Translations under genes and position numbers: made by a program
Origin: Octopus vulgaris
Taxonomy: Eukaryota
Assembly (NCBI GenBank): GCA_951406725.2
Contig: OX597814.1
Span: forward strand, 118,792,001 to 118,856,000
Direction: 5' to 3'
DNA length: 64,000 bases
The notes under the pieces: generated by a model
Databases searched by the model: none
What the model was told of the DNA's origin: nothing
What the model saw: only the letters and a program-made list of their open reading frames with translations
In this document: in pieces, positions 41,643 to 46,456 of the stretch
How the letters are laid out: every line of letters begins with the position of its first letter
Numbering within the stretch: the stretch's first letter is position 1

Positions 41643-42156
41643 GGTGGGTGTACTTCGTTTCTGGATTTGGTTTGTAACATTCTTTGTGTGAGTTCGCGTG
41701 TTGATGCATATTTTGTTGCGCTTGGGAAAGTTATTCTCTTTTTGTGCCTTATTATTTAACACACACACCAGTGCAGTTTCCAATTTTGTACTTATTTATT
41801 TCTTCTTGTCATTGCGTCCTACAACCTTTTCAATAATTCTTGACTCTCAACGGCTATTGACAATGTTGCGAGACGCAACGAAACTTTTAGAAAAACTAAT
41901 TAATAAGTAAATGAATGGAAACTGAACTGGTGAGTGTGTTAAATAATGAGGCACATAAAGAGAATGACGCCTCCAGGATACAATATATATATATATGAGA
42001 GCTTCCAACTCGGGCTGTGCCACATCATATAATCGTTGGTTTTCATACACACTTTCTTGTACTATTTTACAAAATAATATAATCTCTTAACAAAACAATT
42101 AAGAAGATAGCGTATAATCCATGCATTTGTATTTTTGTCACCATATACATACATAT

Positions 42157-42365: not shown

Positions 42366-42584
42366 ATGTGTGTGTGTGTTTGTGTGTCTGTGTGTGTCCC
42401 CCTAGCATTGCTTGACAACTGACGCTGGTGTGTTTATGACCCCGTTACTTAGCGGTTCGGCAAAAGAGACCGATAGAATAAGTACTGGGCTTACAAAAGA
42501 ATAAGTACCGGGGTCCAGTTGCTCGATTAAAGGCGGTGCTCCAGCATGGCCGCTGTCAAATGACTGAAACAAGTAAAAGAGTAA
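42157..42584 (+). mobile_element. SINE family A, full length (tRNA-derived head, internal TA/TG microsatellite, LINE-like tail)
   Basis: A-box-like tggctgtgtggtaag, B-box-like ggttcagtccc, core ccttgggcaagtgtctt, tail ggcggtgctccagcatggccgctgtcaaatgactgaaacaagtaaaagag. Confidence 0.96.
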
Positions 42585-42740: not shown

Positions 42741-43127
42741 CTAGCAGTATCGCCCGGCGTTGCTCGGATTGTAAGGGAAATAACTATATAAGCATTTTTA
42801 GAGAGTTATAGCCAAAAAATAGCATGCATTAAAAATTGAAAAAAAATTAAGGTAAATTTTTATTTAAATCGTTGACACATCGTAGATATTTTTAGAGAGT
42901 TACTTCCCTTATATAAAAGCGAAAAAAAAGCATTAAAATGGAAAAAATGATGGTAATTTTTTTTAAATCGTAGACTCATCGTAGACGCACGCTAATACCC
43001 AGAAGGGCTCGATATGAATCACGACTATAAGATACCCGCTTTTGGTTAAACTGCACCGCAAAATGTGGGAGTAGTTAGGAATCTAAATCGTAGGAGACAG
43101 ACACACAACTTCACTCTTATATAAAGA
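42741..43127 (-). mobile_element. Non-autonomous Helitron, 387 bp
   Basis: On the - strand: A|TCTTTATATAAG...ccgagcaacgccgggcgatactgCTAG|T. This gives a 5' TC, a 3' GC-rich imperfect hairpin plus CTAG, insertion in an AT dinucleotide and no TSD. Internal ~95-bp tandem duplication. Confidence 0.88.
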
Positions 43128-43572
43128 TGCTTTTTTTTTCAGTCATAGAGTTAGATTTATGAAGGTCTTCAGTAGAAAATCCTTCGAATTCTGACTCGCT
43201 GCTTGATATAATGAAATTCGTATCCATTTTTTGTCAGAATTACAAATTTTGAAAACACAATAGGAACAAATTTCGGAAAAAATCTCCCATAATTCATGGA
43301 ATTAAAATTACACTTCGATTTTTGTACAAAACTGTAGTTGAAGTGTTTACGATGTATAATACGTGTTTTCACGAATGTACTAAAGAGATTTGCTCTGATA
43401 TTCTCATTCCTCTATTTACATAATATTGAGGTCTCTTTCTTTCTTTTGTTATCTTGCTGTTTTTACCAATATACATATATATATATATATATATAATATA
43501 TATATATAGTTACAGAGATGTACTTGCATAGCAAGTGACTTGATCTGAGATCGTGTGCTGGAACGAAAACAG

Positions 43573-43831
43573 TTGCAGCGTTGAAGGTGTTTATAAGCCA
43601 TTTAAGAAACACACAAAAACCGTTAGATTCACTTCAACATTTAAATTTAATTTGTCAAAATATTTTCGTCGCTTTGAGACCGCGACCTGTTAACACGATA
43701 TTTTTGTCAGTGAACAGGTCGCGGTCTCAAAGCGACGAAAATATTTTGGCAAATTAAATTTAAATGTTGAAGTGAATGTAACGGTTTTTGTGTGTTTCTT
43801 AAATGGCTTACAAACACCTTCCACGCTGCAA
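43573..43831. repeat. Fold-back: 119-bp inverted arms with a 21-bp spacer (PLE pseudo-LTR-type)
   Basis: Arms 43573-43691 and 43713-43831 are near-perfect reverse complements. Confidence 0.95.
43703..43753 (+). ncRNA. Minimal type I hammerhead, G3-C8 core variant
   Basis: TTTGTCA-GTGAACA-g-GTCGCggtctcaaaGCGAC-GAA-AATATT-T-TGGCAAA. The other arm reads TGACAAA, a perfect stem I partner. Confidence 0.65.
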
Positions 43832-43899
43832 TATATATATACACACATATATATATATGTATGTATGTATGTATGTGTGTATATGTGTATGCATGTATG

Positions 43900-44125
43900 T
43901 GTGTGTGTGTGCGTGTCTGTGCTTGTGATTGTCCTCCACCACTGCTTGACAACGAATGTTGGTTTGTTTACATCCCTGTCACCTAGTGGTTTGACAAAGG
44001 AAACAGATAGAATAAGTACAATGCTTACAAAAATAAAACTGGAGTTGATTCATTAAACTACAATTCTTCAAGGCATTGCCCCAGCATGGCCACAGACCAA
44101 TGGCTGGAAAAAGCAGAAGAATAAA
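43900..44125 (+). mobile_element. SINE family A, 3' half
   Basis: gcttgacaacg...gatagaataagtac...gccccagcatggccacagaccaatggctggaa. Confidence 0.85.
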
Positions 44126-44196
44126 AGAATACATTCTCTGCTTTGGTCTTATGTTCAAGGCATGAGAAAGCTTGAGTTTACATGAGAAGGCCTAAC

Positions 44197-44443
44197 AGAC
44201 CTGGTAGAAACAGCAGCCAAATCTCCCTCAAATCACACCTTACTGTCTTATGTATATATATATATGAGCCAATGAGGGGGACCTCTACATGGTAGCTAGA
44301 CCTGGTACATGGTAAAATAGCAGCCAAATTTCCCTCAAATCACACCTTACTGTCTTATCTATGTATATGTATGTATGAGCTATGAGGAGACCACATGGCA
44401 GCAGACTGGTAGAAATAGCACATTCTCAAATCACCTAGTCTTA
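44197..44443 (+). repeat. Three diverged copies of a ~55-bp unit
   Basis: agacctggtagaaacagcagccaaatctccctcaaatcacaccttactgtctta at 44197, ~44298 and ~44403. Confidence 0.85.
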
Positions 44444-44954
44444 TCTTTCTGCTACTTGGATATAGGTGTTATATTCGTCGTAAAAAACTTTCCTCTCACA
44501 CACTCACGCACACGCACACACACACACACACACACACCCACACACACACACACACGCGCACACACACACACACACACACTCACACACACGCACGTTAGCT
44601 TACAATTTTATTTATATATTTGCGTGTCTATGTGTGGAAAGCGGAAGTGGGAGGCAGAGTGAAAGAATCACTCACTACAGTAAGGGAATTACTTTAATTT
44701 TATTCGTTGCCCACTGTGTGTGTGCGTTTGCGTGTGGTGTAAACCAGACTAAGAAAAGCATTTGACACACACACCAGAATGTGAGTTCTCTGTAAATTTT
44801 GCTTAATTGGAGTTTAAATTTTAAAAACTGGACCTGGCATGACGCGATGCATTGTACTCTTAAAAATGCTAGGTAAATTGTAATTGAAGAAATGCTATAT
44901 TGTAGATTTGTATAACTCCCAAAGGGAGGCAGATAAAATCTGCCTTTTATAATA

Positions 44955-45010
<56 letters not shown>

Positions 45011-46010: not shown

Positions 46011-46456
46011 ATGGCGGTGGCCTCATGGAGCTGACCATGGCAGCGATTATTCTTATACCTATAAGAATGCCATATTAATATGGCGATAACAATTAACTTC
46101 CAGTAAACGCTGCCATAATCTCTTTTATAGAGACTTAGTCATTTTAATATTTCTATTATTGAAAACAAGTGGATGTATTCCACTGAAACTAGGTAAATAT
46201 AAGCCTTCGAACAGAGACGTCAGTGGCGACACCTGCGGGTCTGACTGCGCTACATTGACAAGGGGCAATACCCCGAAACGCGTCTGTAGCTGTCGGACTG
46301 GCAGTGTGAAGCGGCTGACCTCCCTTGTTCGAAGGTTATAATGGATACAGATCGTGTATCAATAGCTATCTTGATGGCGGTGGCGTCATGGAGCTGACCA
46401 TGGCAGCGATTATTCTTATATCTATAAGAATGCCATATTAATATGGCGATAACAAT

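What the first reader, a model, noticed from the sequence alone, without database searches (positions are those of the whole stretch)
43573..43831. G3-C8 inverted-core hammerhead in a 259-bp fold-back
Seen: 7-bp stem I, GTGAACA core, one extra G, 5-bp GC-rich stem II, GAA, palindromic AATATT and a predicted UUU site. The left arm stops inside the core, so only the + strand has a full motif. Established: G3-C8 swaps retain activity but are uncommon in nature. Inference: a motif invisible to canonical searches, combining three departures (3-8 swap, insertion after A9, A/U-only stem III).
Basis: partly seen in the sequence, partly recalled or inferred. Interest (0 to 1): 0.75.

Follow-up and report, generated by a model that had tools for sequence, protein, structure and literature searches.

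The report
Swapped-core Penelope hammerhead riding a Helitron
This fold-back is the end-piece of a Penelope-type jumping gene, carried as a passenger inside a second mobile element; it holds a hammerhead self-cutting-RNA motif whose key paired letters have traded places relative to sister families in the same genome, and it likely still cuts slowly in the parent element, though cutting is untested.

Summary
It is a minimal type I hammerhead from the pseudo-LTR of a Penelope-like element: 3,256 pattern matches in the genome, downstream of an RT/GIY-YIG ORF in longer copies. Sister families carry it at the same position with canonical C3-G8; pair 3-8 and pairs in stems I, II and III change on both sides, so the swap is a natural compensatory change. 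Only the swap is unusual: the extra base after A9, the palindromic stem III and U17 are ordinary for these ribozymes (PMC4209133). The fold-back is a routine inverted insertion (52 of 80 copies) that would bury the ribozyme, and this copy is a passenger in a non-autonomous Helitron (624 copies of the junction), so identical copies show no selection. Against activity: no pile-up of 5' ends at the cut (3 of 80), and a young sister family has A9C. Cleavage is untested. No natural G3-C8 hammerhead was found in nine paper searches; two key papers were unavailable. The scan noted this family before on other DNA.

The parts
43703..43753 (+). Minimal type I hammerhead motif with G3-C8 core (stem I, core, extra G, stem II, GAA, palindromic AATATT, U17)
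   Evidence: covariation with sister families
43710..43716 (+). Core heptamer GTGAACA; G3 = 43710, C8 = 43715, A9 = 43716
   Evidence: 81 of 100 listed copies keep it when the core is left free
43746..43747 (+). Predicted scissile bond (after U17)
   Evidence: inferred from hammerhead numbering; no genomic signature of use
43692..43831 (+). Right arm: short pseudo-LTR copy, 5' end 18 nt before G3, 3' end at the first of two family 3' ends
43510..43691 (-). Left arm: inverted, 5'-truncated pseudo-LTR copy with the 60-nt tail (second 3' end); truncated inside the core
43803..43831 (+). Likely start codon and first codons of the PLE ORF
   Evidence: peptide resembles the N-terminus of the intact sister ORF at the same distance from the motif; join to the ORF body not seen for this family
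42741..44959 (-). Non-autonomous Helitron-type element carrying the fold-back: 5' TC at 44959, 3' hairpin and CTAG ending 42741, between A and T
   Evidence: 624 copies of the arm junction
42741..43128 (-). Short Helitron-type unit that supplies the 3' end in this copy (81% identical to the unit in the other copies)

Best explanation
The motif is the pseudo-LTR hammerhead of a Penelope-like retroelement family in which the 3-8 base pair is G-C where sister families have C-G; in the parent element it likely still cuts slowly, helped by a second copy or by the element's protein, whereas this particular copy is likely an inert passenger. Shown: the motif lies about 1.1 kb behind an RT/GIY-YIG ORF and about 90 nt before the likely ORF start; short copies begin about 20 nt before G3, end at either of two sites 60 nt apart, often sit in or next to (TA)n and mostly carry an inverted partner; the window copy lies inside a Helitron-type element. 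Inferred: transcription starts just upstream of the ribozyme; in a pLTR-ORF-pLTR read-through RNA two motifs pair through AAUAUU (or the RT/EN protein folds one) and cut after U17, trimming the precursor; cutting is slow or late, so most RNA is reverse-transcribed uncut. The inverted arm arose during insertion, the Helitron later captured and multiplied it as DNA, and any transcript across both arms would form a 122-bp hairpin that excludes the ribozyme fold.
For: 3,256 matches, control 0; 0 with C3-G8 on this family's stem II. ORF-bearing copies L069-071, L073, L119, L120, L122; Pfam GIY-YIG E 9e-5. Sisters at about 53% protein identity have the motif at the same place with CTGANGA. On 10 hand-picked rows from 4 families 97% of cells pair, 5 of 11 pairs change on both sides including 3-8; slid controls 23-48%. 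Subfamily-level variation falls in loop 2 and flanks, not in core or stems. No alternative core base at 10% or more in contigs of four other organism labels. In the anole PLE hammerhead C3G and G8C each abolish cutting, the double partly rescues, and cutting needs the protein (PMC11167929). Helitron ends with A|T flanks in 27 of 31 loci. Stem II probability 0.84 in the right arm alone, 0.00 with both arms.
Against: No cleavage assay. 3 of 80 tail-selected copies start within 3 nt of the cut (about 1.5 expected from neighbouring density); 56 of 80 extend 5' of it. In that set only 31 of 47 core-spanning copies keep the heptamer and the core decays no slower than neighbouring non-CpG sites. A young autonomous sister family has A9C in all 9 loci examined, so this clade tolerates core damage. 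Ribozyme mutants did not impair insertion in vitro (PMC11167929). The 3-8 covariation is one evolutionary event and the alignment rows were chosen by me. No RNA evidence obtained.
Confidence: 0.6

Rival explanations
1. The motif is hammerhead-derived but no longer cuts to any useful extent; stems and core are kept as a protein-binding or promoter-proximal RNA structure, or just inherited, and the swap is the trace of relaxed selection.
For: No 5'-end pile-up at the cut and 56 of 80 copies come from uncut templates; sister family with A9C is young and abundant; a double transversion must pass through a mismatched intermediate; G3-G8 copies are common (48 of 100 listed C8 variants); cleavage dispensable in vitro (PMC11167929).
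Against: The two changes fall exactly on the pair that catalysis needs and restore it; G3-G8 copies are scattered over all subfamilies and 6 of 10 readable partner arms have C8, so they are not an amplified lineage; uncut templates also dominate for the anole element, whose ribozyme does cut with protein.
Confidence: 0.32
2. The 259-bp fold-back is itself the functional unit (a MITE-like element or a hairpin RNA in which the two arms act together).
For: Very stable hairpin; 624 copies of the same junction.
Against: The copies share about 2 kb of flanks bounded by Helitron ends; inversion points differ among independent insertions; the arms are on opposite strands, so they cannot form a tandem hammerhead dimer, and the left arm lacks G3-G5.
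Confidence: 0.04
3. Chance likeness to a hammerhead.
For: No Rfam hammerhead match; the core does not fit CUGANGA.
Against: Positional homologs in sister families are fully canonical and share stem II ends and the extra G; Rfam misses those too.
Confidence: 0.02

Closest known systems
Minimal type I hammerheads in pLTRs of metazoan Penelope-like elements (Cervera and de la Pena 2014, PMC4209133; read: main text parts 1-2 of 4, supplement file 2 parts 1-2 of 3; file 1 not searchable)
   Same: Type I layout, U-rich 5' side, unpaired base between 9 and 10.1, G10.1-C11.1, short palindromic stem III, U17 common, opposite-strand pairs 100-700 bp apart or closer, most copies truncated.
   Different: G3-C8. 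Of the 56 rows of Fig. S3, 53 have C3, 3 have U3, none G3. The extra base is G (their consensus says H; one row has G).
PAc hammerhead of the anole Poseidon element (Frangieh et al. 2024, PMC11167929; read: parts 1-2 of 4)
   Same: Ribozyme next to the ORF start; two reverse-transcription start sites that define a tail; AT-rich targets; no read ends at the cut; engineered C3G/G8C partly active.
   Different: There G3-C8 is a laboratory double mutant; here it is the wild type. Here the start codon lies about 55 nt behind the cut and the tail is 60 nt.
Natural U3-A8 hammerheads (Perreault et al. 2011, PMC3088659, passages; PMC4209133)
   Same: Natural covariation of the 3-8 pair.
   Different: Two transitions keeping pyrimidine-3/purine-8; here two transversions that invert the pair.
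Neptune/Nematis-type EN+ PLEs (Craig et al. 2021, PMC8557442; passages)
   Same: RT with C-terminal GIY-YIG, CX2-5CxxC linker, (TA)n bias, tandem and inverted insertions, tail.
   Different: Clade not resolved here; DKG motif reads DKS; pLTR-to-stop distance about 1.1 kb, microsatellite-rich.
Canonical non-autonomous Helitrons (definition in PMC4067079; passages)
   Same: 5' TC, 3' CTAG, 16-nt palindrome 12 nt from the end, A|T insertion, tandem copies, captured DNA.
   Different: Cargo is a PLE fold-back, a SINE-like piece and tandem repeats; autonomous partner not sought.

Membership tests
Minimal type I hammerhead of PLE pLTRs | Stems I and II around the core, type I order | tested here: met
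Minimal type I hammerhead of PLE pLTRs | Literal CUGANGA core | tested here: not met
   GTGAACA; 0 family copies with C3-G8. Filed therefore as a variant, not a plain member
Minimal type I hammerhead of PLE pLTRs | Watson-Crick pair between positions 3 and 8 | tested here: met
   C-G in 8 rows, G-C in 2 rows, none unpaired
Minimal type I hammerhead of PLE pLTRs | Unpaired base between 9 and 10.1; G10.1-C11.1; GAAA | tested here: met
   PMC4209133
Minimal type I hammerhead of PLE pLTRs | Palindromic stem III and NUH site | tested here: met
   AATATT then T; 15.2-16.2 covaries
Minimal type I hammerhead of PLE pLTRs | Located in the pLTR of an RT/GIY-YIG element, sense strand | tested here: met
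   family copies L069-071, L073, L119, L120, L122; the window copy has no ORF
Minimal type I hammerhead of PLE pLTRs | Self-cleavage (dimer or protein-assisted) | not testable with these tools
   indirect genomic test negative: 3 of 80 5' ends at the cut
EN+ Penelope-like element, Neptune/Nematis type | RT plus C-terminal GIY-YIG with CX2-5CxxC linker | tested here: met
   530-aa frame with YVDD, CX3CX2C and GIY-YIG hit; Pfam gave no RT family hit at E 0.1
EN+ Penelope-like element, Neptune/Nematis type | Tail, 5' truncation, inverted partner, (TA)n target | tested here: met
EN+ Penelope-like element, Neptune/Nematis type | Placement in a named clade by RT phylogeny | not tested
   no reference set on hand
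Canonical non-autonomous Helitron | 5' TC, 3' CTRR, subterminal palindrome, A|T flanks | tested here: met
   27 of 31 loci A|T, 3 G|T, 1 unread
Canonical non-autonomous Helitron | Empty sites without duplication; autonomous Rep/helicase partner | not tested
   not sought

The most novel reading that the evidence does not exclude
A natural, fixed and catalytically active G3-C8 hammerhead: an animal retroelement lineage inverted the 3-8 core pair by two transversions, kept it across subfamilies and several related species, and thereby escapes every CUGANGA/UUGANAA descriptor, so hammerheads in Penelope-like elements are undercounted and the swap may tune the ribozyme to a slower, protein-gated rate.
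Probability: 0.5. Interest if true: 0.62.

Novelty: new variant of a known kind. Interest (0 to 1): 0.45.

Why it matters
The C3-G8 pair was inferred from structure and mutant rescue; known natural covariation is U3-A8. A wild-type G3-C8 with canonical sisters in the same genome gives a matched natural pair for measuring what the inversion costs and whether surrounding sequence compensates, and argues for widening search descriptors. Together with the A9C sister it bears on an open question: whether PLE hammerheads need to cut at all. The case is also a caution: hundreds of identical ribozyme copies here come from Helitron hitchhiking, not selection.

Tried and rejected
Rfam at gathering and E-value thresholds: no hammerhead match for the window or for three canonical sisters; miRNA hits are generic hairpins. 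Identity among the 40 best copies rejected as evidence of selection (one insertion multiplied by a Helitron). First reading of the carrier as Helentron/HINE dropped: ends fit a canonical Helitron on the - strand. Eight copies with a shared downstream extension were an older composite, not the autonomous element. Idea that G3-G8 copies are an intermediate subfamily rejected. 5'-end pile-up at the cut sought, not found. Sequencing runs: no RNA holder listed; only contigs were laid. Look-up of earlier notes by sequence was blank. Papers not held: Lunse et al. on dimeric PLE hammerhead variants, Przybilski and Hammann 2007 on 3-8 exchanges, Arkhipova et al. 2017; any of these could mention a natural G3-C8. 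No full-length copy of this family joining the 5' pLTR to the ORF body was found.

Full report
Observation. The fold-back is real: arms 43573-43694 and 43710-43831, 96% complementary, folding z = -28. The + strand carries stem I (43703-09 with 43747-53), GTGAACA (43710-16), one extra G, stem II (43718-22 with 43732-36), GAA, AATATT and T at 43746. The left arm stops inside the core. A generic scan of the 64 kb on both strands gave only this motif and an unrelated U3-A8 one. Rfam gave no hammerhead match, nor for three canonical relatives.

The copy in this window is a passenger. The 40 best genomic matches were 100% identical over 132 nt, but the 30 fetched share about 2 kb of flanks. Read on the - strand this unit starts with TC (44959) and ends with a 16-nt palindrome and CTAG (42741); 27 of 31 loci lie between A and T, and several are tandem. 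These are the ends given for canonical Helitrons in PMC4067079 (passages). The arm junction occurs 624 times. These copies descend from one insertion and say nothing about selection on the RNA. In the window the Helitron's 3' end is supplied by a different short unit (81% identical) after 278 extra bases seen in no other fetched locus.

The parent is a Penelope-like element. A pattern of core, stem II and stem III matched 3,256 places, control 0; of the first 30, 24 were independent of the Helitron. They have two 3' ends about 60 nt apart, often lie in or next to (TA)n and show varied 5' inversions. In 80 copies chosen by the tail only (80 of the 100 listed; I left out the 8 fetched earlier as an older composite and 12 others) 52 had an inverted partner. 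Two 3' ends defining a tail, and inverted 5'-truncated partners, are described PLE traits (PMC11167929 parts 1-2; PMC8557442 passages). Of 100 listed copies, 27 continue upstream (counted by hand); of 20 fetched, four reach far into an ORF that ends about 1.1 kb before the motif. [quoted passage not shown] Homologs are widespread, the named ones from marine invertebrates. The linker points to Neptune or Nematis; I did not resolve the clade. No copy joining the 5' pLTR to the ORF body was found for this family.

The swap is a compensatory change. A protein search found the family, older subfamilies at 76-83% and sisters at 56-58% over the query. ORF-bearing family copies at 95% and about 80% have GTGAACA. 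Sisters carry, at the same place before a similar N-terminal peptide, CTGAAGA or CTGATGA with the same extra G and stem II opening GTC...GAC (2,540 matches to a pattern admitting both cores, controls 37). On 10 rows that I picked from 4 families, 97% of cells pair and 5 of 11 pairs change on both sides: 3-8, two in stem I, one in stem II, and 15.2-16.2; slid controls pair 23-48%. Relatedness inflates such counts and the 3-8 change is a single event, but its direction is clear: none of the 56 PLE hammerheads in Fig. S3 of PMC4209133 has G3. No family copy has C3-G8 on its own stem II. With the core left free, 81 of 100 listed copies keep GTGAACA; subfamily-level variation sits in loop 2 and the flanks (that set is partly selected on the core). 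Contigs from four other organism labels show no alternative core base at 10% or more.

Only one of the three departures stands. PMC4209133 (main text parts 1-2) lists the base between 9 and 10.1 and the palindromic stem III as regular features; its Fig. S3 has A/U-only stem III in several rows and U17 in about 24 of 56 by my reading. G3-C8 is known as an engineered rescue: partial activity in the anole PLE ribozyme and in earlier work cited in PMC8495972 (passages); PMC3884650 mentions a G3-C8 variant as a construct. Natural covariation reported is U3-A8 (PMC3088659 passages). Searches (one search was on Helentrons) gave no natural G3-C8, but three relevant papers were not held and one supplement file was not searchable.

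Evidence against activity. Of the 80 tail-selected copies 3 start within 3 nt of the predicted cut, about 1.5 expected; 56 extend 5' of it, and 23 start 18-26 nt before G3. So most insertions came from uncut RNA, as reported for the anole element, where mutants of the ribozyme insert normally in vitro. Among the 47 that span the core, 31 keep the heptamer; decay is like that of neighbouring sites, as expected for dead copies. A young autonomous sister family has A9C in all 9 loci examined. C8 changes to G unusually often (48 G, 42 T, 10 A in 100 listed of 206; background 10:37:10); these copies span all subfamilies and 6 of 10 readable partner arms keep C8, and Helitron- or composite-borne copies show 4 G of 8 variants, which favours a DNA-level hot spot over an intermediate lineage; this is unexplained.

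Likely mechanism. Of 40 short copies that begin at AGATG, the base before is G in 22, C (the templated base) in 12, A in 4, T in 2 (by hand; some G can come from the inverted arm). I infer a capped transcription start 23 nt before G3; a splice acceptor (CTAAC...TTTCTCAG) at the same place is the alternative. In a pLTR-ORF-pLTR transcript two motifs would pair through AAUAUU, or the element's protein would fold one, and cut after U17, slowly. The fold-back arms are on opposite strands and cannot form such a dimer; with both arms stem II probability is 0.00, with the right arm alone 0.84. I put 0.6 on slow assisted cleavage in the parent with an inert window copy, 0.32 on a non-cutting relic.

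Verdict. New variant of a known kind. The scan noted the same family on other DNA of this genome (e1-8667090, e1-9554188, e1-8670522, e1-8672697) and a similar swap in a protist element (e1-7369241); these are leads, not support. New here are the Helitron passenger status, the negative cut-site test, the A9C sister and the C8-to-G excess. Interest 0.45.

Noticed in passing
window 46249-46290 (+): A second type I hammerhead with a U3-A8 core, 6-bp stem I, 4-bp stem II and palindromic CGCG loop 3 (retrozyme-like); a similar motif occurs in L133.
   Followed up: no
L129-L137 (e.g. G000:C1:59389500-59399000): Young autonomous sister PLE family (ORF about 1,312 aa, copies 95-98% alike) whose pLTR hammerhead has A9C in all 9 loci; a natural test of whether cleavage is needed.
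   Followed up: partly
family-wide, core position 8 (window 43715): C8 changes to G about four times more often than the background spectrum predicts, across all subfamilies; cause unknown.
   Followed up: partly
window 43129-43406: 278 bases between the short Helitron unit and the captured segment, absent from all other fetched copies; the window may be an older form of the composite, before a younger short unit inserted at 43407.
   Followed up: partly
L061-L068: An older composite (about 80% identity between copies) also carries a fragment of this pLTR with the same G3-C8 core, so the fragment was captured at least twice.
   Followed up: partly
G000:C2:206158682-206176163: Tandem array of the Helitron composite, period about 2,183 bp, at least 9 units; such an array would place several motifs on one strand.
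   Followed up: no
L071 6150-6164 and related copies: CTAAC...TTTCTCAG just before the short copies' 5' boundary looks like both an initiator and a splice acceptor.
   Followed up: partly
window 42399-42584 and 43933-44124: Two diverged copies (76%) of a SINE-like repeat, one of them inside the Helitron cargo.
   Followed up: no
window 41730-41807 / 41891-41968: Another inverted repeat, 78-nt arms, 83% complementary.
   Followed up: no
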